A DNA stretch of 64,000 bases from a virus (IMGVR_UViG_3300031963_006119); one strand, 5' to 3'; positions 14,909 through 48,360 are shown, counted from the first letter of the stretch. Notes: generated by a model from the sequence alone, not told the origin. Translations and numbers: made by a program.

Positions 14909-14987
14909 GAGTTAAGCATAGGAGAAAGTCTTTATTAAACTTAAAATTAGATGCATTAACAAACATAACTTGCATCTGGAGCGAAAA

Positions 14988-16704: not shown

Positions 16705-16719
16705 CTAGTAGGTTTAGAA

Positions 16720-16750
16720 ATAAAAAACCCGCCAGGCGGGTTTTTTATGG
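16720..16750 (+). terminator. rho-independent terminator
   Basis: AAAAACCCGCC-AGG-CGGGTTTTTT. Confidence 0.7.
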
Positions 16751-16762
16751 TAAATACTTCAT

Positions 16763-17317: not shown

Positions 17318-17778
17318 AAATAAATGAACTAATGGCGGCAACTTCAGTGCCGTGGAAATGGACTTATCGCAGTGAGCGTCAGGCCACTGCTGAATTTACT
17401 GTGGGCAATGTGCTGTATGAATTCAAAGCAAAGAATTCAGAATACGATCATGTAGATGCAGACCGTGATGTAGTAGGCTACGATGATGAAGAAGAAAATG
17501 AAGAAGTTGACTACCGTGGTTACTGGGAAATTAGTTTTAACGGTGACGGCAAAACTAGCATGACCGGAACTGGTAACTCCGCACAAGTTATATCAGCTAT
17601 CACTGCTATAATAAAAGATTTCTTAATAACATACGACGATAAGATTCAAGTGATAGAATATGATGTACAAGGGTCTAGCGGTAGGGCAGGAGTATATGGT
17701 CGTATTTTTAATAAGCTGTTGCCAAATTGGACACAAGAAGATGGCTCACTACACGATGTGGAGGTAAAAAGACCATGA
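17314..17778 (+). CDS. hypothetical acidic protein
   Basis: ATGA overlap with previous gene. Confidence 0.45.
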   Translation: MKINELMAATSVPWKWTYRSERQATAEFTVGNVLYEFKAKNSEYDHVDADRDVVGYDDEEENEEVDYRGYWEISFNGDGKTSMTGTGNSAQVISAITAIIKDFLITYDDKIQVIEYDVQGSSGRAGVYGRIFNKLLPNWTQEDGSLHDVEVKRP

Positions 17779-18068
17779 GAAAAATATTATTAATTTTATT
17801 AGTTTGTTTGTCTAGCACAGTCAATGCACAATTTAGATATGATTATCCCTTGTTGTGTGACAGTACTGAAAAGATCATAAAAAGCCTTGGGGAAAATTAT
17901 AAAGAAATATTAACCTGGGGCGGAAAGCATTCTAGTGATAATAGTGCCTACAGTTTATGGATCAATGAAAAAGAAGGATCTTGGACATTACTTAAAATGA
18001 CTCCTGAAACTAGTTGCATACTAGGAGTAGGCACAGAATCTAAAATTAAACTAGGTACGTCAATATAA
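17775..18068 (+). CDS. small secreted protein
   Basis: Signal peptide MRKILLILLVCLSSTVNA; internal Met start overlapping upstream stop. Confidence 0.45.
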   Translation: MRKILLILLVCLSSTVNAQFRYDYPLLCDSTEKIIKSLGENYKEILTWGGKHSSDNSAYSLWINEKEGSWTLLKMTPETSCILGVGTESKIKLGTSI

Positions 18069-24184: not shown

Positions 24185-24406
24185 ATGGAGAAAAAAATGG
24201 AAGAAAAAGAAGCTAAACGCTGGGTATTTAAAGCAGAGGATATTTTTGAGGACATTCCCACAGATCCTGAGAACTGTCTAATGAAAATTCCTGAAGAAGT
24301 ATCTAATGCTATAGGGCTAGCACCTGGCGATCGAGTAAAAGTTTTATGGGGTGATCAGGGCACTATTATTATAGAAAAGGCAAAAGAAACAGATGCCAAA
24401 GAATGA
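24185..24406 (+). CDS. hypothetical small acidic protein
   Basis: RBS GGAGAAAAAAATG; 73 aa. Confidence 0.4.
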   Translation: MEKKMEEKEAKRWVFKAEDIFEDIPTDPENCLMKIPEEVSNAIGLAPGDRVKVLWGDQGTIIIEKAKETDAKE

Positions 24407-24614
24407 CGATCTACTAGAAGTTGAGGGCGAAATAGTAGAGGTTTTACCAAATCAAACATTTAACGTACTATTAGATGTGAACAAAAGCATGATTGTCTGC
24501 TACACCAGCGGACGTATGCGTCAAAACAAAATCCGATTAGTAGCAGGAGATCGTGTAAAAGTAGAAATGAGCTCATACGATCTATCCAAAGGACGTATTT
24601 CATTCCGTATATAA
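24393..24614 (+). CDS. infA: translation initiation factor IF-1 homolog
   Basis: LEVEGEIVEVLPNQTFNVLLDVNKSMIVCYTSGRMRQNKIRLVAGDRVKVEMSSYDLSKGRISFR aligns along its length with bacterial IF-1 (S1-like OB fold; ..G.V.E.LPN..F.V.L.NG......SGKMR.N.IR...GD.V.VE...YDLSKGRI.FR). Confidence 0.8.
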   Translation: MPKNDDLLEVEGEIVEVLPNQTFNVLLDVNKSMIVCYTSGRMRQNKIRLVAGDRVKVEMSSYDLSKGRISFRI

Positions 24615-33744: not shown

Positions 33745-34066
33745 AGAGCGTAAATTTCTTGCCTATTGGGACTGTCTTGGATTTGAAGGAATCTGGGACA
33801 TCACTACCTACGAGCGCCAAAAGCTTCTAGCTGATCTTAAGAATACTACGGTAACTGCTCCGGTTAATCTTAACGCTATGATGCTGAGAGCTAGATACAA
33901 TCCACAACGTAGTCCTGAGATTTGGTTGTTTACTGCTACTGATACAATTAGGCAAGAAGAGTTAATGGATATTGCTCGAGACAATCCGCAGTATCTTGTG
34001 GACCTAATTCGCGAGCGAGGTACTAGTCTTTATCGTAACACACCGCAGAAACAAGTTATTACATGA
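33737..34066 (+). CDS. hypothetical protein
   Basis: 109 aa. Confidence 0.4.
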   Translation: MIKERKFLAYWDCLGFEGIWDITTYERQKLLADLKNTTVTAPVNLNAMMLRARYNPQRSPEIWLFTATDTIRQEELMDIARDNPQYLVDLIRERGTSLYRNTPQKQVIT

Positions 34067-34698
34067 TTAAGCTACAGGGCAAACTCCCTCGTGATATTGT
34101 ACTGGCCTGTTCAGGCGGTGTAGACTCAATGGCTGCACTAGATTTCTTGCGTAGAAATCATCGTGTAACTGTGGCCTACTTTAATCATAAAACTGAGCAT
34201 GGACAAAAAGCTGGTGCTTGGCTTAGAGAACAATGCCGTACCAAGTATACTGATGTTCGATACAGAGAACACACTATTGAAGGCGAATGTCCAAAAAATA
34301 TGAGCAAAGAAGAATGGTGGCGTAATGAACGCTATGCTTGGTTCAATGGTGAAGCTTGGAAAGGCCATACTGTAGTAACTGCACACCATTTGGATGATTG
34401 TGTAGAGACTTGGATTTGGAGTAGTATGCATGGTACAGCAAAAATTATTCCGTACACTCGGCAAAATGTAGTACGACCGTTTCGCTTAACCAGAAAGAGG
34501 GACTTCGAACTGTGGACAAATTTAAATAACATTGAGTATATAGAGGATGACAGTAATGCAAATATCTGTTATACTCGTAACTATATTAGACATGAGATGA
34601 TGCCGCATGTATTAAAAGTAAACCCAGGCATTCATAAACTTATTGCGAAGAGAGTACGAAATGAAGATTGGACTGAGTTACAGCCGATGTGTGCGTGA
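34063..34698 (+). CDS. tilS: PP-loop ATPase, TilS-like tRNA(Ile)-lysidine synthetase catalytic domain
   Basis: PP-loop LACSGGVDSMAAL. HTVVTAHHLDDCVETWIWSSMHG matches TilS block (TAHHLDDQ.ET). 211 aa, an N-terminal domain only. Confidence 0.6.
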   Translation: MIKLQGKLPRDIVLACSGGVDSMAALDFLRRNHRVTVAYFNHKTEHGQKAGAWLREQCRTKYTDVRYREHTIEGECPKNMSKEEWWRNERYAWFNGEAWKGHTVVTAHHLDDCVETWIWSSMHGTAKIIPYTRQNVVRPFRLTRKRDFELWTNLNNIEYIEDDSNANICYTRNYIRHEMMPHVLKVNPGIHKLIAKRVRNEDWTELQPMCA

Positions 34699-35065
34699 TA
34701 TTGTTGACGGAAAAGTAGACATTGACGATGTGTTGGTGTTGATCACTCGCACTGATTTTGATCCGAGAGATGCTGATCAATGGAAAGGTATCTGGGAAGG
34801 ATACGGGGGCGGCCAAACTTTTGGTAACCCACTTAGTAATCCAGAATGGATGGACTATCCTGCAGAGGATGAAGATCGATTTCGTAGCGTAAGCATTGAA
34901 CTTTGGGAAACTGGTAAACTGCACCAACCTCGCAAGTTTGGGTCTCACCCTCGACGATTGCCCTACTACTGGTTAGAAACGTTTGCTCCTGAAACAGAAG
35001 TTGCATCTAACCCCTCAGTACAACTCGCTTGGGAAAAATATAAACTTCTAGCAGGTCTAAGCTGA
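34661..35065 (+). CDS. hypothetical protein (paralog of 33358-33744)
   Basis: See 33358. Confidence 0.45.
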   Translation: MKIGLSYSRCVRDIVDGKVDIDDVLVLITRTDFDPRDADQWKGIWEGYGGGQTFGNPLSNPEWMDYPAEDEDRFRSVSIELWETGKLHQPRKFGSHPRRLPYYWLETFAPETEVASNPSVQLAWEKYKLLAGLS

Positions 35066-38447: not shown

Positions 38448-38689
38448 TGACAGTTAAAAAAACATACGCAGATACTGTTGATCTGCACTGCACGGATAAA
38501 AATGAAATAGTGCCAGCTGAAATCCTAGAATTTCGCCCAGGCATGCTTATTAGTGTAAGTATACAAAGAAAAATTAAAATGATACTTAAATTTAATCATC
38601 GAGGCAATAACTATGTTGGCTCGATGGCAGGTCTTGAGTTTACTACTGCTGGCCCAAAAGAAACTATTACTTACGAAGGAAGAAGATAA
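38447..38689 (+). CDS. hypothetical small protein
   Basis: 80 aa. Confidence 0.35.
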
Positions 38690-39306
38690 TGCCACTAATC
38701 CCAATGGTTGTTGAACAAGAGACTCGCGGCGAGCGTTCATATGATATTTACAGCCGCTTGCTCAAAGATCGAATTGTTATGCTCAACGGCCCTGTAGAAG
38801 ATAATATGGCTAATGTAATTGTAGCACAGTTATTATTTTTAGAAGCAGAGAATCCAGACAAAGACATTAACCTATATATTAATTCGCCTGGCGGTGCAGT
38901 TACCGCAGGACTAGCTATCTACGACACAATGCAGTACATCAAATGTGATATTCGTACTATTGTCATGGGTCAGGCATGTTCAATGGGCTCGTTCCTAGCA
39001 CAAGCAGGCACGGCAGGTAAGCGAGTAGTACTGCCTGAAAGCCGTACTATGATACATCGAGTTAGTTCAGGTACTCCTGGAACACGTGGTTCAGTTCATG
39101 TACAAGAACTTCAATTTGAAGATGCTATTCGTTCAATGGAAGAAAGTAAAAAACTCAACAAGCGATTAACCGAGCTGTATGTCAAACACAACACCAAAGG
39201 CAAACAATACGATGAGCTTTTTGAAACAATGAAATTTGATACTTTCTTAAATGCACAAGAAGCGGTTGATTACGGTTTAGCAGATAAAGTTGTAGAGAAA
39301 CGATAA
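38689..39306 (+). CDS. clpP: ATP-dependent Clp protease proteolytic subunit ClpP
   Basis: [54 protein letters not shown], catalytic Ser in GQACSMGS, His in MIHRV; near-collinear with bacterial ClpP. Confidence 0.85.
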
Positions 39307-40170: not shown

Positions 40171-40243
40171 TCCTCAGTAGCACAGCGGTAGTTGCACTTG
40201 ACTGTTAATCAAGGTGTCCGTGGTTCGATCCCACGCTGAGGAG
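40171..40243 (+). tRNA. tRNA-Asn (GTT)
   Basis: Manual cloverleaf: acceptor TCCTCAG/CTGAGGA, anticodon loop CTGTTAA, T-loop GGTTCGATCC, CCA encoded. Confidence 0.75.
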
Positions 40244-40251
40244 CCAATTTA

Positions 40252-40338
40252 GGAGCGTGGGCCGGATGGTAAGGCAGCGGTTTGCTAAACCGTAGATCAC
40301 GTAAAAAGGGTCACAGGGTTCGACTCCCTGACGCTCCG
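40252..40338 (+). tRNA. tRNA-Ser (GCT), long variable arm
   Basis: Acceptor GGAGCGT/ACGCTCC, anticodon loop TTGCTAA, 87 nt with extra arm, CCA encoded. Confidence 0.7.
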
Positions 40339-40349
40339 CCAAATTAAAT

Positions 40350-40421
40350 GCACGATTCGTCTATCGGTTAGGACGCTGCCCTTTCAAGGCGGAAAGACGA
40401 GTTCGATTCTCGTATCGTGTA
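40350..40421 (+). tRNA. tRNA-Glu (TTC)
   Basis: Acceptor GCACGAT/ATCGTGT, anticodon loop CTTTCAA, T-loop TTCGATT. Confidence 0.7.
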
Positions 40422-40680
40422 CCAAGTTTTTTAGTAAGTTGTTTAAGGTTACCTAGTCCGCTAGGGGTGAACGAAAAGGTGATTGCGTAGCAGAAATGCT
40501 CGGCCTTGATACCCATGAAGCAGGAGGGTTCTAGAGTATGACGAGACACCATCGAGTCAAAGGGCAAGAACTATTCCAAACTCCAGGAAGGCGGCGGAAC
40601 TACTAGGCCTGTAATGAGGTCTTGACGCAAGTTGGTGATGCGTGTCAAGAACTTCCTCAAACAATTTATTAAAGATTTTG

Positions 40681-40754
40681 CACCGTTAGCTCAGTTGGTT
40701 AGATCGCTTGCCTGTCACGCAAGAGGCCAGGGGTTCGAGTCCCCTACGGTGCGC
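40681..40754 (+). tRNA. tRNA-Asp (GTC)
   Basis: GCACCGTTAGCTCAGTTGGTTAGA..., anticodon loop CTGTCAC, GGTTCGAGTCC, CCA. Confidence 0.8.
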
Positions 40755-40809
40755 CATATTAGTTGACTTTGATTGTAAAGAGTGTACAATTAAAATATAG
40801 AAAGTTTTT

Positions 40810-40880
40810 GCCCTTATAGTTAAATGGTATAACGACGGTTTTGTAATCCGTAGTTTGCAGTTCGATTCTGTGTAGGGGCA
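40810..40880 (+). tRNA. tRNA-Thr (TGT)
   Basis: Acceptor GCCCTTA/TAGGGGC, anticodon loop TTTGTAA, CCA. Confidence 0.7.
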
Positions 40881-40897
40881 CCAAAGTGTTAGTTTTT

Positions 40898-40978
40898 GCC
40901 CCGGTGGTGTAATGGTAGCCACGCTGGTCTTAGAAGCCAGTGCCGCAAGGCGTGTCGGTTCGAGTCCGACCTGGGGCA
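40898..40978 (+). tRNA. tRNA-Leu (TAG), long variable arm
   Basis: Acceptor GCCCCGG/CTGGGGC, anticodon loop CTTAGAA, variable arm TGCCGCAAGGCGTGT, CCA. Confidence 0.75.
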
Positions 40979-40991
40979 CCAATGTTAGTAA

Positions 40992-41062
40992 GCGGGATTA
41001 GTTTAATGGTAAAACAGCAGATTTCCAATCTTCGGTCATCAGTTCGATTCTGATATCCCGCT
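40992..41062 (+). tRNA. tRNA-Gly (TCC)
   Basis: Acceptor GCGGGAT/ATCCCGC, anticodon loop TTTCCAA, CCA. Confidence 0.7.
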
Positions 41063-41081
41063 CCAATTTTAAAAGGTAGAT

Positions 41082-41306
41082 ATGAAAGCAAAAACTTTAA
41101 GTCGTGGTCCAACTATTGATACTAATAAATGTGTTGAAAATGTTGGTGGTAGATTTGATCTAGTATTAATTGCTTCAGTTAGAGCTAGAGAAATAGCAAG
41201 GAAACACAGGAACGACGAAATGTCTACCCAAGTTAATGCGCCAGTTTCTGCACTGCTTGAAATTCAAGAAGGCAAAATTGGTAGAGAGTATCTAAGAAAA
41301 GTATAA
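41082..41306 (+). CDS. rpoZ: DNA-directed RNA polymerase omega subunit homolog
   Basis: RBS AAAAGG. VENVGGRFDLVLIASVRAREIARK matches the RpoZ signature (GNRFDLVLVAARRARQ). 74 aa. Embedded between tRNA genes. Confidence 0.6.
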   Translation: MKAKTLSRGPTIDTNKCVENVGGRFDLVLIASVRAREIARKHRNDEMSTQVNAPVSALLEIQEGKIGREYLRKV

Positions 41307-41327
41307 TCGGAGTGTGGCGCAGTCTGG

Positions 41328-41402
41328 CTAGCGCACCTGGTTTGGGACCAGGGGGTCCAAGGTTCGAATCCTTGTACTCCGACCATTTTTTGGGCTGTTA
41401 GT
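41328..41402 (+). tRNA. tRNA-Pro (TGG)
   Basis: C1-G72 start CGGAGTG as in bacterial tRNA-Pro, anticodon loop TTTGGGA, CCA. Confidence 0.75.
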
Positions 41403-41411
41403 GATAATGGG

Positions 41412-41483
41412 AGCACGGGGCCTTTGCAAGGCTTAGGTCGGGGTTCGATCCCCCGACGGTCCACCAAATATGCGGGTATGATG
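41412..41483 (+). tRNA. tRNA-Ala (TGC)
   Basis: Acceptor with G3:U70 wobble (Ala identity), anticodon loop TTTGCAA, T-arm CGGGGTTCGATCCCCCG, CCA. Confidence 0.7.
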
Positions 41484-41491
41484 TAATGGTA

Positions 41492-41562
41492 ACCTGAAAC
41501 CTTGCCAAGGTTTATTCGCGAGTTCGATTCTCGCTACCCGCTCCAAATGTTTTAGAAATATT
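41492..41562 (+). tRNA. tRNA-Gly (GCC)
   Basis: Acceptor GCGGGTA/TACCCGC, anticodon loop TTGCCAA, CCA. Confidence 0.75.
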
Positions 41563-41594
41563 TTTAAAAAGATGTTGACAAGACAGTAAAAATT

Positions 41595-41623
41595 TGCTAA
41601 AATAGACACATGTTAAGAATTTA
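41595..41623 (+). promoter_or_regulatory. consensus sigma70 promoter TTGACA-17-TAAAAT driving ORF-free region
   Basis: TTGACA 41595-41600, TAAAAT 41618-41623. Confidence 0.5.
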
Positions 41624-41629
41624 AGGGTG

Positions 41630-42830
41630 GTTTATCATCCTGTAGGCGGCTTGCCGTTTACAAAGAATAAGTGTGGCGACACACCCAAAGCTAGAATGCC
41701 TACATACTAGCGCCAGCAATGGTTCACGTAAACAAGCCTGCTCACTACCGCGAGGTAGCGTTCACTCATAAGACCGGTGGATGTAACAGCAAAGCTGATG
41801 TATGGGAAAGAACATTGTTCGACGTGCCGCAAGGAACACGGGGCAGTGAAAAGTAACAGGTGGTGCTGACTTCCATATAAAACCAATCAGTTAGTTGGTA
41901 TGAGAAAGGGTAGTGTACTTGTTCGAGGGGTCGCACCTAAGAGCTCGTATACAATGTAAATGGTTAGTGGGCTGTAGTAATACAGTACACCGATCGTGAA
42001 ACATCACTGAGTAGCTCGCGAGGCAAAAGGTATGTGGTGAGTTGTATTTTGTATTCCAAAAGAGTATGAAGCAACTGAGGCAGCTCATCGCGGTAGGTTA
42101 ATGTAGATCAATGGTAGATCATCTTCCTGTTAAGAAGAATGCTGTCGGTTCAAATCCGATCATTTAAACAAAAATGCAAAGACTGCCTCGGTCGTATGTG
42201 AAAAGTATCTAATACTTGAGTGGTAACACAATCAAGTCTAATGAAGCTCGCAAGGTAACATTAGTTTATACTGGAAGTTTCGTAGGGTGTTAGCGCACTC
42301 GAATAGCTCGCAAGGTTAACGGAATAGATGGTGTAGAATAGCATATGGCGTCAAGTCTACTGCCTGACTTAAAACGGCGATACTGTAAGCAGACTAGGTT
42401 ACATAGTGATATGGACTTAGTGGATGTCTAGAGAACGTATACTCGCAAGGTGTACGGTAATGCTAGAGGTGCTTATGGTTAAGATGTAATCTCAGTCTTA
42501 ACACTATTCTAAAACACATTACCACAAACAGCAATTAGAGCTGGTTGTATAACAATGTCGTAGTGTGTTTCAGAATAGCAGAAATGTTATGCACATGACA
42601 ATTCGTTGTCAGCAAGAGAATGTCACGCTATAAAGGTTTCTTCGAAGGACTGATATAGTAGAAGGGGACGGGTTCAACTCCCGGCTGATCGGAAGATCGG
42701 CGCAGATTGGTTGCTAACTGGACTAGTATCCCAAGTGACGTACCGAGTCCCGCTCGAGCTTGTTAATTCGGGTGAATGGTGCTTATAACGATGGAAGTAC
42801 TAATGAGTTGTCAGCTGTATAATATTTTGA
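41630..42830 (+). ncRNA. promoter-driven ORF-free structured region (candidate large ncRNA) with repeated CTCGCAAGG motifs, degenerate tRNA-like segment and tmRNA-like T-arm
   Basis: No + strand ORF in 1.2 kb of a gene-dense genome. Motif [A/G]CTCGC[A/G]AGG at 42013, 42245, 42305, 42441. tRNA-like 42097-42167. GGGGACGGGTTCAACTCCCGGCTGATCGG at 42664-42692. Confidence 0.35.
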
Positions 42831-42906
42831 AGCGGAGTAGAGGAGTCCAGTCGTCCTCGCTAGTCTCATAAGCTAGAGATCGCAGGTGCGAATCCTGCCT
42901 CCGCAA
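42831..42906 (+). tRNA. tRNA with CAT anticodon (Met or lysidine-Ile2), A1/A72 mismatch
   Basis: Anticodon stem-loop CTAGT-CTCATAA-GCTAG, T-arm GCAGGTGCGAATCCTGC, CCA; long D-loop. Confidence 0.6.
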
Positions 42907-42923
42907 CCAGTTTTATTTTCAAA

Positions 42924-43010
42924 GGAAGCGTGGCAGAGCCCGGCTTATTGCGTTAGTCTTGAAAACTAAAGACTCGAAAGGGTCCGTGAGTTCGAATCTC
43001 ACCGCTTCCG
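42924..43010 (+). tRNA. tRNA-Ser (TGA), long variable arm
   Basis: Acceptor GGAAGCG/CGCTTCC, anticodon loop CTTGAAA, 87 nt, CCA. Confidence 0.7.
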
Positions 43011-43028
43011 CCAGACATTAAAAAATAC

Positions 43029-43057
43029 TTGACAAGTAGACACAAATCATATACAAT
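43029..43057 (+). promoter_or_regulatory. sigma70-like promoter TTGACA-17-TACAAT
   Basis: TTGACA 43029-43034, TACAAT 43052-43057, RBS AAAAGGA before ATG 43084. Confidence 0.5.
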
Positions 43058-43083
43058 TAACACATAGAGAAAAGGACACAAAC

Positions 43084-43656
43084 ATGGAACTTACACTTCG
43101 TAAAGCAAGCGCACTTCAGAACAGCATCAACGATACTGTTAAAAGTATCACGTTGACACAAACAATTCGCATCAACGAGTTCCAAGAGGCTGAAGCTGAA
43201 ATATCTAAGGCTGCTCAGGAATTTAACAGCAATGTGTTTCGTCGTGTAGCACTGACAGATGTGCTGTACGAAATTCGCAAGGCAGTGAGCCGTGCAAATG
43301 CACAAGCAGGTGTCAATGAAAAGTTGGCAGACTTGGCTCAGCTTGAGAAAGATATCCAATTCTTTTCAGGTCTAACAGCTCATGACGTTCGTGAGTCTGC
43401 TCAAGTCATTGAGGGCAAGTTGAATAAAATTCGGAACCGCAAAGAAGACACTCGTGCAAGTTTGTACGGCCACAGTGATGAAGTTAGTACTTCTGTATTG
43501 ACTCGCAAAGATGTAGATACATTCCGTGCAAAAGTAGCAGAAGCCAAAAAGGCCAAGCAGAAATTGCAGGACGAGCTCTTAGAGCTTAATGTTCGTACAA
43601 CTATTGCCCTAAGTGGTAAGGCTGTGGACATTCTTAAGCACGAAGAATTGATCTAA
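43084..43656 (+). CDS. hypothetical coiled-coil protein
   Basis: 190 aa, good RBS, Lys/Glu/Ala-rich helical. Confidence 0.5.
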   Translation: MELTLRKASALQNSINDTVKSITLTQTIRINEFQEAEAEISKAAQEFNSNVFRRVALTDVLYEIRKAVSRANAQAGVNEKLADLAQLEKDIQFFSGLTAHDVRESAQVIEGKLNKIRNRKEDTRASLYGHSDEVSTSVLTRKDVDTFRAKVAEAKKAKQKLQDELLELNVRTTIALSGKAVDILKHEELI

Positions 43657-44165
43657 GGAAAACCCGGGCTCCCTTGCCCGTTATACACAGGGGGTGGGGC
43701 AGTCACCATAAAGAGTGCTAGGCGTGTAGTGCATTGGCCTTCCGATCCCGTGTAGGGAATCCGGGGACGCATTAGGTGAGGTTTAGCACCTTTCCAAAAG
43801 AATAAATGTTATGGACAGAGTAACCGCTCAGTCTAGGGCTCATGTGGTGTGAGTAGCTAGACACTTTATAAATGCTCTTTGAAGTTTAACTACACTTGAG
43901 AACACCAGTAGGTACTAAGTCGACTAACTGCTGAACGTGCAAGGAAGATACGGAGTTAAACAGTTTGGTTCGATTCCAACAGAGAGCACCTATAAGGTTT
44001 TGGTAGTATGCTGGTAACAGTAAACTACCCGGAAGAAGGCGAGAGATGAGGATGAACACCGTTATCGCTTCATGCGATGACTCCAATACTGGCAATCAGT
44101 CTTGAAAACTGATCGTGTTTGTATGCCCCGAATCTATCGAACTTGTGATTTGCTGTTCGGAAATA
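43645..44165 (+). ncRNA. rnpB: RNase P RNA-like (rnpB-like) element
   Basis: GC-rich, ORF-free island. GGAAAACCCGGGCTCCC (43657), CCAACAGAGAGCACC (43976), GCTGGTAACAGTAAACTACCCGGAAGAAGGC (44010) and GCCCCGAATCTATCGAAC (44125), in the same order as M1 RNA motifs AGGAAAGUCCGGGCUCC / CAACAGAGAGCA / GCUGGUAACAG..GGUAAACUCCACCCGGAGCAAGG / ACAGAACCCGGCUUAUCGG. Confidence 0.5.
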
Positions 44166-44302
44166 CGCAAGCCACTGTGCTTTGCATATTGTAATTTGCT
44201 TAGGGCCTAGAGTAACCTCAGCCCGTTTGCACCTTGCACAGTTCATTACTTACTTGCTAACTTTCGTTTTTTTATAAGTAATCTTACAAAGGAGACAAAC
44301 TT

Positions 44303-44977
44303 ATGTATGCAACAGGTGTTTTTCGTTCTGCATCGCAGATTAATAGTGCAATGGGCCGTGTTTACGGACATATGGCACTGGCAGTTATCACATCAATGAT
44401 TGTAAGTTATCTTGTAGGATCAAATACAACGCTGATGGAATTTTTCTTTACAGGCGCAATGAAATGGCTTGTAATCTTTGCGCCGCTTGTAGCCATTCTT
44501 GGCGTTAGCTTTGCAATGGACAAAATGAGTAAGAGTGCGTTACAGCTATTTTTACATGGATTTGCCGCATTAATGGGTCTAAGTTTTGCTACAATCTTTG
44601 TAGTATATAACATGGGAAGCATTGTAAGCGCATTCATGGGAGCTGCCGTTCTATTTGCTACAATGAGTGGCTATGGCTACTTCACTAAACGTAATTTGGA
44701 CGGAGTTGGCCAATTTATGTTCATTGGGTTGATTGCGATTGTTATTGCAAGTATAATCAATATTTTTATTGGTAGTACAGTTTTTCAAATGGTCATTAGT
44801 GCTATCGGAATTATTGTGTTCTTAGGCTTAACAGCATACGACACACAAAAGATTCGTGAGATGGTTAGTTACGACAATGATGGTAAGGCAGAAATTGCAG
44901 GCGCTCTTAGCTTGTACTTAGACTTTATCAACTTGTTCTTAATGTTACTACAACTATTTGGTGGTCGTAAGGACTAA
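44303..44977 (+). CDS. Bax inhibitor-1/YccA family membrane protein
   Basis: RBS AAAGGAGA; 7 predicted TM helices; 224 aa; BI-1/YccA-like N-terminal cytoplasmic segment and terminal basic motif (GGRKD). Confidence 0.6.
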   Translation: MYATGVFRSASQINSAMGRVYGHMALAVITSMIVSYLVGSNTTLMEFFFTGAMKWLVIFAPLVAILGVSFAMDKMSKSALQLFLHGFAALMGLSFATIFVVYNMGSIVSAFMGAAVLFATMSGYGYFTKRNLDGVGQFMFIGLIAIVIASIINIFIGSTVFQMVISAIGIIVFLGLTAYDTQKIREMVSYDNDGKAEIAGALSLYLDFINLFLMLLQLFGGRKD

Positions 44978-44984
44978 AGAATTT

Positions 44985-45056
44985 GCCTGGTTAGCTCAGG
45001 GGTAGAGCAACGCCTTTACACGGCGAAGGTCCGCGGTTCGAAACCGTGACCAGGTA
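44985..45056 (+). tRNA. tRNA-Val (TAC)
   Basis: GCCTGGTTAGCTCAGGGGTAGAGC..., anticodon loop TTTACAC, T-arm CGCGGTTCGAAACCGTG, CCA. Confidence 0.7.
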
Positions 45057-45129
45057 CCAGAAATGTTTCCGTATTCAAGAGTGTGGCAAAAATACAACAA
45101 TATTTTTGTCACTTTTTAAAGAAAATCTC

Positions 45130-45158
45130 TTGACAGAGATAAATAAATACAGTATACT
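45130..45158 (+). promoter_or_regulatory. sigma70-like promoter TTGACA-17-TATACT of short transcription unit
   Basis: TTGACA 45130-45135, TATACT 45153-45158. Confidence 0.45.
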
Positions 45159-45321
45159 ATACACATAGTAAGAAATTAACTAACAGAAAGAAAGATGATC
45201 AAAATGTTTAAGCAAATTAGAAAACATCAGATGTTTTGCATTCGCTGGTATCGACTACCAGGCGAGGGCCTTTCTGTAGGAGCAAGTTACGCATAACCAG
45301 TAACAGCTCAAAAAACAAAAA

Positions 45322-45362
45322 GACCCTCGGAATGTAAAATACTCCGGGGGTTTTTCTTTTAG
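45322..45362 (+). terminator. rho-independent terminator
   Basis: GACCCTCGGA...TCCGGGGG hairpin + TTTTTCTTTT. Confidence 0.6.
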
Positions 45363-45598
45363 TGCTATAGGAAACGAGATCCTGCTATCACTTTAAACTA
45401 GCAAATGGGCGGCCTAGGGGATGAAGTCTGTGGCGACAACACAGATGTTAAAATCCTAGAGTAGTTAAGAACACTATAGGGACGACTGGACTCATAGCCC
45501 AGAACTTTGTAAAAGGCGTTATTAGTGTTCTTAACTACACACTCTTCATTCGCCCTGCGACGGCGTCTAAAAGCATAGCGGAGAGTGTCACTAAGTTT

Positions 45599-45682
45599 GG
45601 AGATGTAGGAAAATTGGTAACCCCAGTGGACTGTAAATCCGCCGCCCTTCGGGCACTACTGGTTCGACTCCAGTCATCTCCA
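45599..45682 (+). tRNA. tRNA-Tyr (GTA), long variable arm
   Basis: Acceptor GGAGATG/CATCTCC, anticodon arm GTGGA-CTGTAAA-TCCGC, 84 nt, CCA. Confidence 0.75.
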
Positions 45683-45690
45683 CCAAACAT

Positions 45691-45762
45691 AGCCGCGTAG
45701 CTCAGAGGAAGAGCACTCGCTTGATAAGCGATAGGTCGACATTTCGAAACTGTCCGTGGCTA
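45691..45762 (+). tRNA. tRNA-Ile (GAT)
   Basis: AGCCGCGTAGCTCAGAGG..., anticodon loop TTGATAA, CCA. Confidence 0.7.
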
Positions 45763-45772
45763 CCAAATTAAT

Positions 45773-45843
45773 GTATCTCTAATGTAATGGCAGCATCACA
45801 GTCTCCAAAACTGTTCGTCGGGGTTCGAGTCCCTGGAGGTACG
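45773..45843 (+). tRNA. tRNA-Trp (CCA)
   Basis: Acceptor GTATCTC/GAGGTAC, anticodon arm ACAGT-CTCCAAA-ACTGT, T-arm CGGGGTTCGAGTCCCTG, CCA. Confidence 0.75.
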
Positions 45844-45853
45844 CCAAGTATAA

Positions 45854-45925
45854 CTCGCTTTAGTATAATGGATAATACAGTAGGCTTCTACCCTACGAAT
45901 ATGGGTTCGATTCCTGTAGGCGAGG
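45854..45925 (+). tRNA. tRNA-Arg (TCT)
   Basis: Acceptor CTCGCTT/AGGCGAG, anticodon arm GTAGG-CTTCTAC-CCTAC, CCA. Confidence 0.7.
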
Positions 45926-45935
45926 CCAGTAATAC

Positions 45936-46010
45936 GCACAGGTGGCAGAGAGGCCCAATGCAGTGGATTGCAAATCCGCAAAACCGTGAGTTCGAATCTC
46001 ACCCTGTGCT
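45936..46010 (+). tRNA. tRNA-Cys (GCA)
   Basis: Acceptor GCACAGG/CCTGTGC, anticodon loop TTGCAAA, T-arm GTGAGTTCGAATCTCAC, CCA. Confidence 0.7.
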
Positions 46011-46135
46011 CCAGTTACTGCAACAATCCGCTCGGGCTTCGTAGCGGAATGTAGTATTGAAGCCTATAAGTCCTGTGGAAGCAGGGGTCTAGATCCGTGT
46101 CCAAAGCGGTGTGGCTAACGAAGTGCCAAATTTAT

Positions 46136-46206
46136 TGGGGTATAGTGTAATGGTAGCACCACAGACTTTGACTCTGTTAGTCTAGGTTCGAACCCTAGTA
46201 CCCCTG
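46136..46206 (+). tRNA. tRNA-Gln (TTG)
   Basis: D-arm GTGT-AATGGTA-GCAC, anticodon arm ACAGA-CTTTGAC-TCTGT, T-arm CTAGGTTCGAACCCTAG, CCA; 1:72 pair uncertain. Confidence 0.65.
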
Positions 46207-46210
46207 CCAT

Positions 46211-46283
46211 AGTGATGTAGCATAGCGGCTAATGTACCTCCTTCATACGGAGTTTATCGTCGGTTCGAGTCCGACCATCACTA
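46211..46283 (+). tRNA. second tRNA with CAT anticodon (Met or lysidine-Ile2)
   Basis: Acceptor AGTGATG/CATCACT, anticodon loop TTCATAC, T-arm GTCGGTTCGAGTCCGAC, CCA. Confidence 0.7.
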
Positions 46284-46304
46284 CCAACTTTAAAGGAGAA
46301 ATAT

Positions 46305-46496
46305 ATGCCAACGATTAGATATCTTGATACTAGTATGTACGGATCGTATTTTGTCGACTGCGAAATATTAGAAAAAATAGACGAAGACACATTTAAGATT
46401 AAATTCTATGATGACAATATAGATGAATATGAAATAAAGGTAGTTGAGCGTGATCGTCTTGAGTTTCCTAAGTTTAGTGATTACGCATCTTATTAA
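46305..46496 (+). CDS. hypothetical small protein
   Basis: RBS AAAGGAGAAA then ATG; 63 aa; sits inside tRNA island. Confidence 0.45.
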   Translation: MPTIRYLDTSMYGSYFVDCEILEKIDEDTFKIKFYDDNIDEYEIKVVERDRLEFPKFSDYASY

Positions 46497-46670
46497 GGAG
46501 AAAACAAAATGGGGCGATCGTAGTTTTACTTATGATAGTAGCTTTAATTTACTTTATTGACAAAAATTTAAAATAGGAGAATGACATGAAACGTTCAAGT
46601 AAACGTTAGTGTCAACCTTGACCCCGTATTGGTCCTGGTTGGCACATTAAATCAATTTAATTACGACCAA

Positions 46671-46743
46671 CCACTTGTAGCGTTAACGGTAGCGCACTTG
46701 ACTCTTAATCAATGAGGTGTGAGTTCGAATCTCACCGGGTGGA
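46671..46743 (+). tRNA. tRNA-Lys (CTT)
   Basis: Acceptor CCACTTG/CGGGTGG (2 G-U), anticodon loop CTCTTAA, T-arm GTGAGTTCGAATCTCAC, CCA. Confidence 0.6.
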
Positions 46744-46750
46744 CCAATAC

Positions 46751-46823
46751 GGGAGTATGGTGAAATGGTTATCACAGCAGACTTTTAATCTGCCAGTTCC
46801 GGGTTCGAGTCCCGGTGCTCCTA
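46751..46823 (+). tRNA. tRNA-Lys (TTT)
   Basis: Acceptor GGGAGTA/TGCTCCT, D-arm GTGA-AATGGTTA-TCAC, anticodon arm GCAGA-CTTTTAA-TCTGC, CCA. Confidence 0.7.
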
Positions 46824-46837
46824 CCATAGATAAACAC

Positions 46838-46935
46838 ACTTTCAATCTGAATTGACAGATACAAACAACCAAGGGGAGCCTCTGGGTTCATCCAGTTTCA
46901 TCCTGAATTGACAGGAACAAGGTTGTAAGGGGAGC
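46838..46935 (+). repeat. two imperfect about 38-bp direct repeats (CTGAATTGACAG..AAGGGGAGCC)
   Basis: CAATCTGAATTGACAGATACAAACAACCAAGGGGAGCC and CATCCTGAATTGACAGGAACAAGGTTGTAAGGGGAGCC, each carrying a TTGACA hexamer. Confidence 0.5.
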
Positions 46936-46959
46936 CGAGTGTGTTTTTCTATGGTAATA

Positions 46960-47031
46960 CGGCCCTTGGTGAAATGGATATCATTTCGGTCTTCGAAACC
47001 GACGGTGGGAGTTCGATCCTCTCAGGGCCGG
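46960..47031 (+). tRNA. tRNA-Arg (TCG)
   Basis: Acceptor CGGCCCT/AGGGCCG, anticodon arm TCGGT-CTTCGAA-ACCGA, T-arm GGGAGTTCGATCCTCTC, CCA. Confidence 0.65.
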
Positions 47032-47041
47032 CCAAATATAT

Positions 47042-47113
47042 ACCCCTGTCGTTCAATGGATAGGATACCATGCTACGAACGTGGGGACGGTGGTTCGATT
47101 CCATCCAGGGGTG
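47042..47113 (+). tRNA. tRNA-Arg (ACG)
   Basis: Acceptor ACCCCTG/CAGGGGT, anticodon arm CCATG-CTACGAA-CGTGG, T-arm GGTGGTTCGATTCCATC, CCA. Confidence 0.7.
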
Positions 47114-47122
47114 CCAATCAAT

Positions 47123-47193
47123 GGTGTTGTTAGTGTAGTGGTAACACGACTGTCTGTGAAACAGTAGACCAGGGTTCGATTCCCGACTTCACC
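47123..47193 (+). tRNA. tRNA-His (GTG) with G-1/C73 but two T-T mismatches in acceptor stem
   Basis: D-arm GTGT-AGTGGTA-ACAC, anticodon arm ACTGT-CTGTGAA-ACAGT, extra 5' G and discriminator C typical of His, CCA; acceptor and T stems imperfect. Confidence 0.5.
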
Positions 47194-47332
47194 CCAAATT
47201 TGTAGTAACCAGCTAGGTGCTGTGTAAAAGGTGTTGCGGATAGTAGAGGTCTCATAGAGATAAGCTCGCTGTCGTTAAAGATCGTGACGCAAACTAATTG
47301 AGTTTTGTCTCAACCTACTACATTTTATTTTT

Positions 47333-47405
47333 GCCGCTTTAGCTGATGTGGTCATAGCAACGGATTGAAAATCCGAGGAACCCTGTTCGATCCGGGGAGG
47401 CGGCA
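47333..47405 (+). tRNA. tRNA-Phe (GAA)
   Basis: Acceptor GCCGCTT/AGGCGGC, anticodon loop TTGAAAA, T-arm CCCTGTTCGATCCGGGG, CCA. Confidence 0.7.
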
Positions 47406-47435
47406 CCATTAACTGTGTATGATTTTATATTATGG

Positions 47436-47510
47436 AGCGACCGGGGGATTCGAACCTCCGCTTCTTGGGTTACAGTCCCAAGTGTAGTGACCACTCTACT
47501 ACGAGTCGCA
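47436..47510 (-). tRNA. atypical tRNA on minus strand (anticodon region ACTGTAA/TGT, C33 or enlarged loop)
   Basis: Reverse complement reads GCGACTCGTAGTAGAGTGGTCACTACACTTGGGACTGTAACCCAAGAAGCGGAGGTTCGAATCCCCCGGTCGCTCCA: clear T-arm/CCA and D-arm GTAG/CTAC but 6-bp anticodon stem or 9-nt loop and imperfect acceptor. Confidence 0.45.
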
Positions 47511-47517
47511 TATTGAT

Positions 47518-48360
47518 TTAAGGTATTGTGCTACTAGTTGCCAACAGTTCTTTTATTTTGTCAAAAATTATCTTATTTCCTTCTGCGTTCATTGCATTAG
47601 CAGATTGTTGATAACCAATGTTATATTGGCTGTTATCTTTATATAGCTCGCGCATAGAAAGATCTACAGGTCCAGACGTAATAGTATACCAAGAAGGGTA
47701 CCATTGATCTTTACTAAAAAAATGTACACAGGGTATTTTTTTATTATGCAAGTACGAATCAATTTGCATTAATGCCCCATAGTATCTGTTTAATTGTAAA
47801 TCTGGATGATACATATATTTTCTAGTTAGTTCAAAAGCAGTCCAAAGTTCTTGGTAAAACTTTTCATCGTCTGATGCTATTCGAACCTGATCTAATAGTG
47901 CTTGTTTAATTTCACTACTATCCCCATCTTGCCATTTTATAAATGCATCAGTATAGTTTTCAAAATGAATGTTATAATATTCTAATAATTGTAAACATGC
48001 TCCGTTAGGGACGTTTTCAAAAAAATCAATATAAAAATCATGTTCTTTAAAGTCAGTTCCCCACATTGATTCTACCCAATTTCGAGCAGTGTATTTTCTA
48101 TCAAATGTAGTTTTGTCTATGTTCGAAACATCTTTGTTCCAGCTAGGCATAAAGATATGATACGGTGCGGCATGGAATATAATTGCTGTATCTAGTTTTT
48201 TAGTTTTCTTTAAATTGAATAATATTCTTTCCTCACTGCAATGTGGGATTCCAGAATGGACAATATTAGCATCAAACTCTTTTTTTAATAAACTTACAAA
48301 ATTCCATTCTTGGTTAGGATCATATCTAGAAATACTATCTCCATACACACCTATGTTCAT
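47518..48360 (-). CDS. hypothetical protein (possible SGNH-type hydrolase), opposite strand
   Basis: 280-aa ORF on - strand starting MNIGVYGDSIS (GDS block); divergent from promoter at 48446. Confidence 0.45.
   Translation of the reverse strand: MNIGVYGDSISRYDPNQEWNFVSLLKKEFDANIVHSGIPHCSEERILFNLKKTKKLDTAIIFHAAPYHIFMPSWNKDVSNIDKTTFDRKYTARNWVESMWGTDFKEHDFYIDFFENVPNGACLQLLEYYNIHFENYTDAFIKWQDGDSSEIKQALLDQVRIASDDEKFYQELWTAFELTRKYMYHPDLQLNRYYGALMQIDSYLHNKKIPCVHFFSKDQWYPSWYTITSGPVDLSMRELYKDNSQYNIGYQQSANAMNAEGNKIIFDKIKELLATSSTIP

What the first reader, a model, noticed from the sequence alone, without database searches (positions are those of the whole stretch)
34063..34698. TilS-like PP-loop domain plus two CAT-anticodon tRNAs: possible phage-directed AUA decoding
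A 211-aa protein carries the SGGxDS PP-loop and the TilS-specific HHLDDxxET block. It lacks the C-terminal tRNA-binding domains of full-length TilS. The tRNA island contains two distinct tRNAs with CAT anticodons (42831-42906 and 46211-46283); at least one could be a tRNA-Ile2 needing lysidine. In an AT-rich genome AUA codons are frequent, so the phage may ensure AUA decoding itself.
Basis: inference. Interest (0 to 1): 0.55.

Follow-up and report, generated by a model that had tools for sequence, protein, structure and literature searches.

The report
Phage mini-TilS without its own tRNA-Ile2
A jumbo phage encodes a shortened, catalytic-domain-only copy of TilS, the bacterial enzyme that lets a tRNA read the isoleucine codon AUA, but the phage's two CAU-anticodon tRNAs are methionine-type, so the enzyme most likely acts on the host's tRNA.

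Summary
ORF 34063-34698 (+, 211 aa) is a TilS N-terminal catalytic domain: NCBIfam TIGR02432 scores 108.8 bits against a cut-off of 93.6, and the best PDB fold matches are Aquifex and E. coli TilS. QueC and TtcA are excluded. It has no C-terminal tRNA-binding domain.

It belongs to a large family of about 200-aa proteins found almost only in phages. At least 140 clusters at 50% identity score E<=1e-30. Among 185,579 cellular species genomes there is one close copy, on a 3.5-kb MAG contig. The published 'TilS' of Pseudomonas phages MIJ3/PA5oct (203 aa) is a member.

tRNA 42831 is initiator-like. tRNA 46211 has a UUCAUAC loop and 0 of 4 bacterial Ile identity elements. Its orthologues sit in tilS-lacking relatives beside a tRNA(UAU), so it is best read as elongator Met.

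In other tilS-carrying phages an Ile2-like tRNA(CAU) lies 16-97 nt upstream of tilS, which supports a role in AUA decoding. In this phage the likeliest substrate is the host's tRNA-Ile2, or a phage tRNA outside the window.

This is a known idea (virus-encoded TilS) in an undescribed architecture. Interest is moderate.

The parts
34063..34698 (+). mini-TilS: a 211-aa protein consisting of the TilS N-terminal catalytic (PP-loop ATP pyrophosphatase plus TilS-specific helical) domain only
   Evidence: ORF. PF01171 5e-27. TIGR02432 108.8 bits against cut-off 93.6. PDB sequence hits 1wy5 at 4e-15 and 1ni5 at 8e-10. AF2 model with pLDDT 88.7. Foldseek top hits are Aquifex and E. coli TilS, TMq 0.76-0.80. 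pN 0.13 against pS 0.76 versus the L001 homologue.
34111..34128 (+). PP-loop motif SGGVDS (residues 17-22), the ATP-binding site
   Evidence: Translation. S17, G19, D21 and S22 are invariant in 30 family members. It aligns with SGGVDS of Aquifex TilS.
34384..34410 (+). HHLDDCVET block (residues 108-116), a TilS-type motif
   Evidence: H108, H109, L110, D111, D112, V114 and E115 are invariant. It aligns with TAHHLNDLLET of Aquifex TilS and TAQHLDDQCET of E. coli TilS.
34576..34593 (+). RNYIRH block (residues 172-177) in the helical subdomain; shared with cellular TilS (RNRIRH / RNFLRL)
   Evidence: R172, N173, Y174, I175, R176 and H177 are invariant. Alignment.
42831..42909 (+). tRNA(CAU) no. 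1: initiator-like tRNA-Met, atypical
   Evidence: A1xA72 mismatch, C3-G70, A11-U24, G12-C23 and loop CUCAUAA. It is 75-81% identical to CGCGG-type initiator-like tRNAs of relatives. It lacks the three G-C pairs at the bottom of the anticodon stem, and has a G at T-loop position 55 and no GG in the D loop.
46211..46286 (+). tRNA(CAU) no. 2: elongator tRNA-Met-like ('C38 class'), not tRNA-Ile2-like
   Evidence: Loop UUCAUAC (U32, C38). G4-C69, A12-U23 and U29-A41 give an Ile identity score of 0/4. It is 70-79% identical to CAT tRNAs of tilS-lacking relatives that also carry tRNA(UAU), tRNA-Ile(GAU) and an initiator-like tRNA.
45691..45765 (+). tRNA-Ile(GAU): internal positive control for Ile identity
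   Evidence: A73, C4-G69, U12-A23, C29-G41 and A38 are all present, 4/4.
40171..47509 (+). tRNA island: 27 plus-strand tRNAs and one marginal minus-strand call. There is no tRNA for AUA and none for UUA/UUG
   Evidence: ARAGORN. Rfam at gathering and at permissive thresholds finds no further tRNA.

Best explanation
The ORF encodes a phage-specific lysidine synthetase made of the TilS catalytic domain alone (mini-TilS). By homology it should adenylate C2 of the wobble cytidine C34 of a tRNA-Ile2(CAU) and then add lysine. That switches the tRNA from Met/AUG to Ile/AUA. Because it lacks the CTD1 and CTD2 domains that cellular TilS uses to read the tRNA body and acceptor stem, it must pick its substrate from the anticodon arm alone (inferred). 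In this phage the substrate is not one of the two island-encoded CAU tRNAs, which are initiator-like and elongator-Met-like. The most likely substrate is the host's own tRNA-Ile2. In that case the phage raises the supply of AUA-decoding tRNA for its AUA-rich genes (14.6 per 1000 codons) by adding modification capacity rather than a tRNA gene. Shown: family, fold, motifs, truncation, purifying selection, the tRNA classification, and the genomic coupling in relatives. Inferred: enzymatic activity, anticodon-arm-only recognition, and the host tRNA as substrate.
For: The protein is a TilS N-terminal domain by profile, sequence and fold. All shared TilS motifs are invariant in the family. The roughly 200-aa length is conserved across more than 2,200 clusters at 90% identity and at least 140 at 50% identity, so it is not a fragment. 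pN 0.13 against pS 0.76 versus the 82%-identical homologue in L001 indicates purifying selection. In other tilS-carrying phages an Ile2-like tRNA(CAU) lies 16-97 nt upstream of tilS (L041-43, L064, L065; a further case, L074, is seen). One of these hits E. coli genes annotated tRNA-Ile at 85% identity. MIJ3 carries two Ile2-like CAU tRNAs whose anticodon arm carries C29-G41, C32 and A38 and, from memory, is nearly that of E. coli ileX. Among tilS-positive loci with at least 3 tRNAs, 19 of 43 have an A38-type CAU tRNA that does not score as initiator by the rule used (a few are probably mis-scored initiators), and 0 of 43 have tRNA(UAU). Among tilS-negative relatives, 18 of 38 have tRNA(UAU). 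This mirrors the known TilS-loss to tRNA-Ile(UAU) compensation (PMC13602947). In the window, tRNA2 has 0/4 Ile identity elements while the phage's tRNA-Ile(GAU) has 4/4 (identity set from PMC9976931). No hidden tRNA was found in the island or within about 9 kb upstream and 6 kb downstream of the window. The closest tilS-positive relative (L002 plus L209) has the same island composition without an Ile2-like tRNA. So tilS has been kept in two diverged genomes that lack an island-encoded tRNA-Ile2.
Against: No activity data exist for any mini-TilS. Deleting only CTD2 from a type I TilS greatly lowers its activity (PMC11947777), so an enzyme with no C-terminal domain at all might be weak or need a partner; no conserved neighbouring partner gene was found. 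The host is unknown, so neither its tRNA-Ile2 nor its AUA usage could be examined. If the host is itself AT-rich, the codon-bias rationale weakens. The genome is at least 316 kb and only about 80 kb was inspected, so a phage tRNA-Ile2 could lie elsewhere. The tRNA classification rests on identity rules from model bacteria and on comparative logic, not on a trained isotype classifier.
Confidence: 0.55

Rival explanations
1. One reading: one of the two CAU tRNAs in the island (most plausibly 46211-46286) is a phage tRNA-Ile2 that the phage TilS lysidinylates.
For: tRNA2 lacks the C3-G70 pair typical of Met and fMet genes (Silva et al., PMC1635315). It has A1-U72, which it shares with the phage tRNA-Ile(GAU) and which is listed as a context-dependent antideterminant against E. 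coli MetRS (PMC9976931). Its C38-class orthologues in tilS-lacking relatives have G1-C72. An enzyme without discrimination domains might accept it.
Against: It has 0 of 4 Ile identity elements (C4-G69, U12-A23, C29-G41, A38), against 4/4 for the phage's own tRNA-Ile(GAU). Its UUCAUAC loop differs at positions 32 and 38 from every Ile2-like tRNA next to a mini-tilS, all of which have CUCAUAA. Positions 32 and 38 are the ones that separate elongator Met from Ile2 and initiator in B. subtilis (PMC13602947). Its closest relatives (70-79% identity) sit in genomes that already have a tRNA(UAU) for AUA. A1-U72 occurs in 7% of all tRNAs in these phages. If tRNA2 were Ile2, the otherwise complete tRNA set would lack an elongator Met.
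Confidence: 0.12
2. The cognate phage tRNA-Ile2(CAU) exists but lies outside the 64-kb window, elsewhere in the genome of at least 316 kb.
For: Most tilS-positive relatives that could be inspected carry an Ile2-like tRNA. Only about a quarter of the genome was seen.
Against: In every relative examined, the tRNAs form a single island, which usually starts a few kb downstream of tilS; in some lineages tilS sits inside it or downstream of it. The window's island is complete and the flanks carry only a tmRNA. The closest tilS-positive relative shows the same composition over its whole island.
Confidence: 0.18
3. The protein no longer makes lysidine on tRNA-Ile2. It could be an inactive remnant, a PP-loop enzyme with another substrate, or a host-takeover tool that lysidinylates host tRNA-Met while the phage supplies resistant Met tRNAs.
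For: It lacks every domain that cellular TilS uses for substrate selection. This phage encodes both Met-type tRNAs, with unusual features, but no Ile2.
Against: All TilS catalytic-domain motifs are invariant and the gene is under purifying selection. Tight linkage to Ile2-like tRNA genes in other lineages argues for the canonical substrate. Most tilS-positive lineages do not encode an elongator Met tRNA, so the takeover idea does not generalise.
Confidence: 0.1
4. It is another PP-loop ATPase (QueC, TtcA/TtuA, MnmA, ThiI) mis-read as TilS.
For: Weak tails of matches: PHROG QueC-like E=0.038, TtcA 15 bits, TtuA folds at E about 1e-9.
Against: The TilS N-terminal model passes its curated cut-off, while all others lie far below theirs. 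TilS structures are the top fold hits by 4 or more orders of magnitude, and QueC scores only E=0.013.
Confidence: 0.02

Closest known systems
Bacterial tRNA(Ile)-lysidine synthetase TilS, type II (Aquifex aeolicus, PDB 1wy5/2e21/2e89) and type I (E. coli MesJ 1ni5, Geobacillus 3a2k)
   Same: Same catalytic N-terminal domain: PP-loop SGGxDS, HHxDDxxET, RNxIRH. About 25% identity, TM-score 0.76-0.80 over the whole query. Presumably the same chemistry: C34 adenylation followed by lysine attack (PMC12069591).
   Different: It stops where the linker to CTD1 begins. [quoted passage not shown] Cellular homologues found here are 430-470 aa and at most 34% identical.
'TilS' of Pseudomonas jumbo phages vB_PaeM_MIJ3 / PA5oct (gp263 / gp37)
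   Same: Same mini architecture (203 aa), 43% identical. Encoded near a tRNA cluster in a jumbo phage. Published as the first phage TilS, function unknown (PMC6892783).
   Different: MIJ3 carries two Ile2-like tRNA(CAU) genes plus an initiator-like one. This window carries initiator-like and elongator-Met-like tRNAs and no Ile2-like one. The MIJ3 passages read here make no mention of the missing C-terminal domains.
Putative lysidine synthase of chloroviruses (39 of 41 genomes)
   Same: A virus-encoded TilS homologue proposed to boost AUA decoding in an AT-rich virus (bioRxiv 10.1101/2020.07.06.190819).
   Different: Eukaryotic algal host. Sequence relationship and domain content were not examined here.
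TilS-independent AUA decoding by tRNA-Ile(UAU) (Mycoplasma mobile; B. subtilis tilS suppressor)
   Same: Relatives of this phage that lack tilS carry a tRNA with a UAU anticodon instead. This parallels the cellular TilS-loss to UAU compensation (PMC13602947, PMC3575796).
   Different: The phage UAU tRNAs are 90-94 nt with a long variable arm. This window has none.

Membership tests
TilS (tRNA-Ile lysidine synthetase) | PP-loop ATP-binding motif SGGxDS | tested here: met
   S17-G-G-V-D-S22, invariant in the family
TilS (tRNA-Ile lysidine synthetase) | Match to the TilS N-terminal domain model above its curated cut-off | tested here: met
   TIGR02432: 108.8 bits against cut-off 93.6, covering profile positions 2-189 of 189
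TilS (tRNA-Ile lysidine synthetase) | TilS-type motifs beyond the PP-loop (HHxDDxxET; RNxxRxxxxP helix of the TilS-specific subdomain) | tested here: met
   Aligned with Aquifex and E. coli TilS; invariant columns H108-E115 and R172-H177, P181
TilS (tRNA-Ile lysidine synthetase) | Fold of the catalytic domain | tested here: met
   AF2 pLDDT 88.7. Top PDB hits 2e21, 1wy5, 2e89 and 1ni5, E 1e-13 to 2e-11
TilS (tRNA-Ile lysidine synthetase) | At least one C-terminal tRNA-binding domain (CTD1; CTD2 in type I); full-length equivalog model | tested here: not met
   The protein ends at residue 211. There are no Pfam TilS or TilS_C hits at E<=1. NF007942 scores 61.7 bits against cut-off 606. No conserved neighbouring gene that could supply the domain
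TilS (tRNA-Ile lysidine synthetase) | A cognate tRNA-Ile2(CAU) substrate | tested here: inconclusive
   None in the window. Present next to the homologous gene in other phages. The host tRNA is unknown
TilS (tRNA-Ile lysidine synthetase) | ATP- and lysine-dependent formation of lysidine at C34 | not testable with these tools
   Needs biochemistry or complementation
QueC / TtcA / other PP-loop families | Match to the family model above its cut-off; best fold match | tested here: not met
   TtcA 15.3 bits against 272, MnmA 11 against 284, ThiI 10.5 against 264. PHROG QueC-like E=0.038. QueC fold E=0.013
tRNA-Ile2 (CAU, lysidine-requiring), tested on tRNA 46211-46286 | Bacterial Ile identity set: A73, C4-G69, U12-A23, C29-G41, A38 (PMC9976931); C32/A38 loop | tested here: not met
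   Only A73 is present. G4-C69, A12-U23, U29-A41, C38 and U32
Bacterial initiator tRNA, tested on tRNA 42831-42909 | 1-72 mismatch; A11-U24 and G12-C23; C3-G70; three G-C pairs closing the anticodon stem | tested here: inconclusive
   A1xA72, A11-U24, G12-C23 and C3-G70 are present (discriminators from PMC1635315). Of the three G-C pairs (a criterion from my own knowledge) only G30-C40 is present (A29-U41, U31-G39)

The most novel reading that the evidence does not exclude
The roughly 200-aa phage proteins are a third, virus-specific architectural class of lysidine synthetase. It would work with no tRNA-body-binding domain, telling tRNA-Ile2 from tRNA-Met by the anticodon arm alone (C32/A38, C29-G41). 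Related jumbo phages would then switch between three ways of securing AUA decoding: tilS plus their own tRNA-Ile2; tilS alone acting in trans on the host's tRNA-Ile2 (this window); or no tilS but a long-variable-arm tRNA(UAU).
Probability: 0.35. Interest if true: 0.65.

Novelty: new variant of a known kind. Interest (0 to 1): 0.45.

Why it matters
TilS is essential in nearly all bacteria. The biochemical literature treats it as needing appended domains to avoid lysidinylating tRNA-Met. A very large, conserved, virus-restricted family made of the catalytic domain alone would be a natural minimal enzyme. It could be used to ask how much of TilS specificity lies in the anticodon arm, which is directly testable with one purified 211-aa protein and a few transcripts. 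Ecologically, it adds a tRNA-modification enzyme to the translation toolkit of freshwater jumbo phages, which already includes 27 tRNAs, a tmRNA, S21 and an IF1-like protein. It also shows that closely related phages solve the AUA problem in different ways. The general idea of virus-encoded TilS is already in print for MIJ3/PA5oct and chloroviruses, so the conceptual surprise is limited.

Tried and rejected
1. Megablast of the 3-kb region against GenBank phages found nothing; the phage is uncultured.
2. The Bax1-I gene inside the island was used as an anchor to fetch relatives' tRNA islands. It returned 80 loci that were almost all without tRNAs and none with tilS. The gene is widely shared, so this scan was wasted.
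3. BLAST of tRNA2 against E. coli genomes found no match. Against GenBank phages, the best full-length hits (75% identity) are Felix-O1-like phage genes labelled tRNA-Met. That label carries no isotype information. The three CAT tRNAs of Erwinia phage phiEa21-4 proved too aberrant (UUCAUUA loops) to serve as a labelled triad.
4. BLAST of the second CAT tRNA of L213 against E. coli gave only a weak tRNA-Ile hit (E=0.6), so it is not used as evidence.
5. A search for a conserved neighbouring gene that could replace the missing C-terminal domains found none. The downstream overlapping ORF (34691-35065) is near tilS in only 7 of 81 loci.
6. Looked for hidden or degenerate tRNAs, and for a homologue of the relatives' long-arm tRNA(UAU), in the window. 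None were found.
7. A1-U72 as a shared Ile mark was rejected as weak, since it occurs in 7% of all tRNAs of these phages.
8. dS is saturated, so only pN and pS are reported, not dN/dS.
9. The Silva et al. supplement with labelled CAT tRNAs and the TmcAL primary paper are not held.

Full report
**1. The observation**

The ORF at 34063-34698 (+) is real and encodes 211 aa. It carries SGGVDS at residues 17-22 and HHLDDCVET at residues 108-116. Both tRNAs with CAT anticodons are found by ARAGORN and by Rfam at the stated coordinates. They lie in an island of 27 plus-strand tRNAs at 40171-47408, plus one marginal minus-strand call. The window has GC 0.38-0.44.

**2. What the protein is**

- Pfam gives only PF01171 (PP-loop, 5e-27).
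- NCBIfam places it in TIGR02432, the TilS N-terminal equivalog domain. It scores 108.8 bits against a curated cut-off of 93.6 and covers the whole profile.
- The full-length TilS model scores 61.7 bits against a cut-off of 606. TtcA, MnmA and ThiI are at noise level. PHROGs has no family for it.
- Against PDB sequences the only hits are the three solved TilS enzymes.
- An AlphaFold model built on 30 family members is confident (pLDDT 88.7, pTM 0.85). Its best structural matches are Aquifex TilS (E 1e-13, TM 0.78-0.80) and E. coli TilS/MesJ. TtuA sulfurtransferases are four orders of magnitude weaker, and QueC scores E=0.013.
- The alignment to the 317-aa Aquifex enzyme ends at its residue 227, and nothing follows in the phage protein. 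It is the catalytic domain with its helical TilS-specific subdomain, and nothing else.

**3. The short form is a family, not a fragment**

- The big protein collection returns 2,215 clusters (90% identity) at E<=1e-5. The best 120 are all 190-221 aa.
- An exhaustive HMMER scan of 1.8 billion 50%-identity representatives gives 140 with E<=1e-30. Almost all are about 180-230 aa.
- IMG/VR holds at least 84 loci, on viral contigs up to 357 kb.
- Among 185,579 bacterial and archaeal species genomes there is a single close copy (62% identity), on a 3.5-kb contig binned with a Crocinitomicaceae MAG. All other hits are at most 34% identical, and most of those checked are ordinary 430-470-aa TilS genes.
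- The identical protein occurs on metagenome contigs up to 316,657 bp, so this is a jumbo phage.
- In GenBank phages the nearest relatives (41-43% identity) are two uncultured phages of about 640 kb and the Pseudomonas jumbo phages PA5oct and MIJ3. Their annotated tilS is also 203 aa.
- MIJ3's TilS was published in 2019 as the first phage TilS, function unknown (PMC6892783).
- Chloroviruses were separately proposed to use a viral TilS for AUA decoding.
- Recent TilS enzymology recognises only type I (NTD+CTD1+CTD2) and type II (NTD+CTD1). [quoted passage not shown]
- The catalytic-domain-only form is thus seen in databases but not described as a class.
- The gene is under purifying selection: pN 0.13 against pS 0.76 (saturated) versus the 82%-identical copy in L001.
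- No conserved neighbour could supply the missing domains.

**4. The two CAU tRNAs**

tRNA 42831-42909:
- It has an A1xA72 mismatch, C3-G70, A11-U24 and G12-C23. Silva et al. give these as discriminators of fMet genes (PMC1635315).
- It is 75-81% identical to CGCGG-type initiator-like tRNAs at the same island position in relatives.
- It is atypical. Only one of the three G-C pairs that close the anticodon stem of bacterial initiators is present (that criterion is from my own knowledge). The T loop reads UGCGAAU and the D loop lacks GG.

tRNA 46211-46286:
- It has the anticodon loop UUCAUAC (U32, C38).
- I scored it against the bacterial Ile identity set (A73, C4-G69, U12-A23, C29-G41, A38; PMC9976931). 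It has none of the four non-discriminator elements. The phage's own tRNA-Ile(GAU) at 45691 has all four.
- Across all loci fetched, mean scores out of 4 were: 21 tRNA-Ile(GAU) genes 3.2; 23 non-initiator CAU tRNAs with A38 2.3; 15 CAU tRNAs with C38 0.27.
- In B. subtilis, elongator tRNA-Met is told apart from both tRNA-Ile2 and the initiator by nucleotides 32 and 38 (PMC13602947). That is the same partition seen here.
- My recollection that Gram-positive and plastid elongator tRNA-Met carry UUCAUAC is own knowledge and was not verified here.

**5. Comparative test**

- I used the island ORF 43084-43656 as an anchor and fetched 46 loci from relatives. None contained tilS in the sequence fetched, although synteny would place it within the 10-kb upstream flank where that flank was complete.
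- These loci carry CAU tRNAs 70-79% identical to tRNA 46211, with the same D arm and UUCAUAC loop. In the same arrays they also carry an initiator-like tRNA, tRNA-Ile(GAU) and a tRNA with a UAU anticodon.
- With AUA already served by the UAU tRNA, the C38 class is most simply the elongator Met.
- One locus, L213 (tilS status unknown, only a 10.7-kb stretch held), has the full triad: an initiator-like tRNA, an A38 type scoring 4/4, and a C38 type.
- Counts for loci with at least 3 tRNAs:

| Locus set | n | A38-type CAU tRNA not scored as initiator | C38-type CAU tRNA | tRNA(UAU) |
|---|---|---|---|---|
| tilS-positive | 43 | 19 | 0 | 0 |
| tilS-negative | 38 | 6 | 16 | 18 |

- The A38 column rests on a simple rule, and a few entries are probably initiator-like tRNAs that the rule missed.
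- These loci are phylogenetically non-independent and the islands are often only partly captured, so this is a pattern, not a statistic.
- The pattern matches the known cellular trade-off between TilS and tRNA-Ile(UAU) (PMC13602947).

**6. Coupling of mini-tilS to tRNA-Ile2 elsewhere**

- In L041-L043, L064 and L065, tilS sits inside the tRNA array, 16-97 nt downstream of a CAU tRNA with a CUCAUAA loop. Most of these tRNAs have G3-C70 or A3-U70, which Silva et al. treat as Ile indicators, and two have C29-G41.
- L074 shows the same arrangement; it holds only two tRNAs, so it was not in the count.
- The L043 copy hits E. coli genes annotated tRNA-Ile at 85% identity in all 5,426 genomes searched.
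- MIJ3 has two CAU tRNAs with an identical body differing only in the acceptor stem, plus an initiator-like one. Their anticodon arm carries C29-G41, C32 and A38 and, from memory, is nearly that of E. coli ileX.
- For the family as a whole, lysidinylation of a phage tRNA-Ile2 is therefore well supported by context.

**7. This phage is an exception**

- Its island is complete within the window. A permissive Rfam scan finds no additional tRNA, and there is no homologue of the relatives' UAU tRNA.
- About 9 kb upstream and 6 kb downstream of the window hold only a tmRNA.
- Its closest tilS-positive relative (L002 plus L209, a 357-kb contig) has the same composition: an initiator-like tRNA plus a C38-type CAU tRNA, with no A38 type and no UAU.
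- Two diverged genomes have thus kept tilS without an island-encoded tRNA-Ile2.
- AUA accounts for 14.6 per 1000 codons in the window's ORFs, slightly more than AUC. That is about three times the E. coli figure quoted in PMC12514573. AUA and UUA/UUG are the notable codons that no phage tRNA covers.
- The simplest reading is that the enzyme works on the host's tRNA-Ile2.
- The alternatives are a phage tRNA-Ile2 elsewhere in the genome of at least 316 kb, or, less likely, tRNA 46211 itself. Its A1-U72 pair is a small hint for the latter, but that pair is common in these phages.

**8. Mechanism**

[quoted passage not shown] Lysidine then switches both aminoacylation (Met to Ile) and decoding (AUG to AUA) (PMC12069591, PMC9976931).
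- Shown here: every sequence block of that domain is conserved and the fold is retained.
- Inferred: the mini enzyme is active, and it discriminates using only the anticodon arm. The consistent C32/A38 loop, with C29-G41 in most, in tilS-linked tRNAs, against U32/C38 and U29-A41 in the phage's own elongator Met, fits such a rule. It would also protect the phage's tRNA-Met from mis-modification.

**9. Verdict**

- The enzyme call is right.
- The broader idea of phage-directed AUA decoding is plausible and already published for other viruses.
- The new elements are the recognition of a huge, virus-restricted, catalytic-domain-only TilS class and of lineage-specific alternatives for AUA decoding.
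- Interest is moderate (0.45). Novelty: a new variant of a known kind.

Noticed in passing
window 42034-42498 (+): A GOLLD RNA (Rfam RF02032, 201 bits against gathering score 150) sits inside the tRNA island. It has a tRNA-like element embedded at 42097-42169, which ARAGORN calls Asn(gtt) but which has a poorly paired acceptor stem. The equivalent element in relative L001 is called with a 4-nt anticodon.
   Followed up: partly
window 42831-42909 (+): The initiator-like tRNA has a T loop reading UGCGAAU (G instead of U at position 55) and an 11-nt D loop without the GG dinucleotide. The usual elbow contacts would be missing. It also has only one of the three G-C pairs expected in an initiator anticodon stem.
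   Followed up: partly
L166, L170, L180, L186, L191, L201, L204, L210 and other tilS-lacking relatives (e.g. L170:9841-9932): The tRNAs with a UAU anticodon in related phages are 90-94 nt and fold with a long variable arm (loop CAGAUUA / CAGAUAA). That is a class-II-like shape not expected for tRNA-Ile. Their charging identity is therefore uncertain.
   Followed up: partly
about 0.4-0.8 kb upstream of the window start (L223:7992-8426): A permuted tmRNA gene (tag ANSSEYALAA) lies just outside the window on contigs identical to it. Another tilS-carrying phage lineage (L027-L029) also has a tmRNA about 9 kb upstream of tilS.
   Followed up: no
window about 7340-7579, about 24393-24614, about 41082-41306, 38689-39306, about 9897-10202: More translation and proteostasis cargo, from precomputed Pfam hits on identical contigs: ribosomal protein S21, an IF1/eIF-1A-fold protein, an RNA polymerase omega (Rpb6)-like ORF inside the tRNA island, a ClpP-like protease followed by a WYL_2 protein (conserved between tilS and the island in many relatives), and ClpS.
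   Followed up: no
window 10199-11432 and 13661-20113: Heme oxygenase plus a ferredoxin-dependent bilin reductase. Also a CsgG (curli secretion), FecR-domain and CHASE2-adenylate/guanylate cyclase block. The cyclase is 53% identical to that of Methylophilales phage Melnitz and 35% to Pelagibacter phage HTVC008M.
   Followed up: partly
window 47433-47509 (-): The only minus-strand tRNA call (Thr tgt) is marginal (Rfam 31 bits against 29). It has a C-C mismatch in the acceptor stem and an A at position 32/33. It may be a pseudo-tRNA next to the only sizeable minus-strand ORF (47518-48360).
   Followed up: no
window about 61507 to beyond 64000 (+): A giant ORF (3,028 aa on identical contigs, weak E1_FCCH hit) starts near 61.5 kb and runs off the window end, so the ORF lister does not show it.
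   Followed up: no
L219 (ERZ27247984 k141_924432) versus window 42521 onward: A strain variant with the identical TilS protein has a different second half of the tRNA island (Lys, Val, Ser, Ala, Thr, then a CGCGGGA-type initiator-like tRNA). Islands are mosaic between otherwise 99.5%-identical genomes.
   Followed up: no
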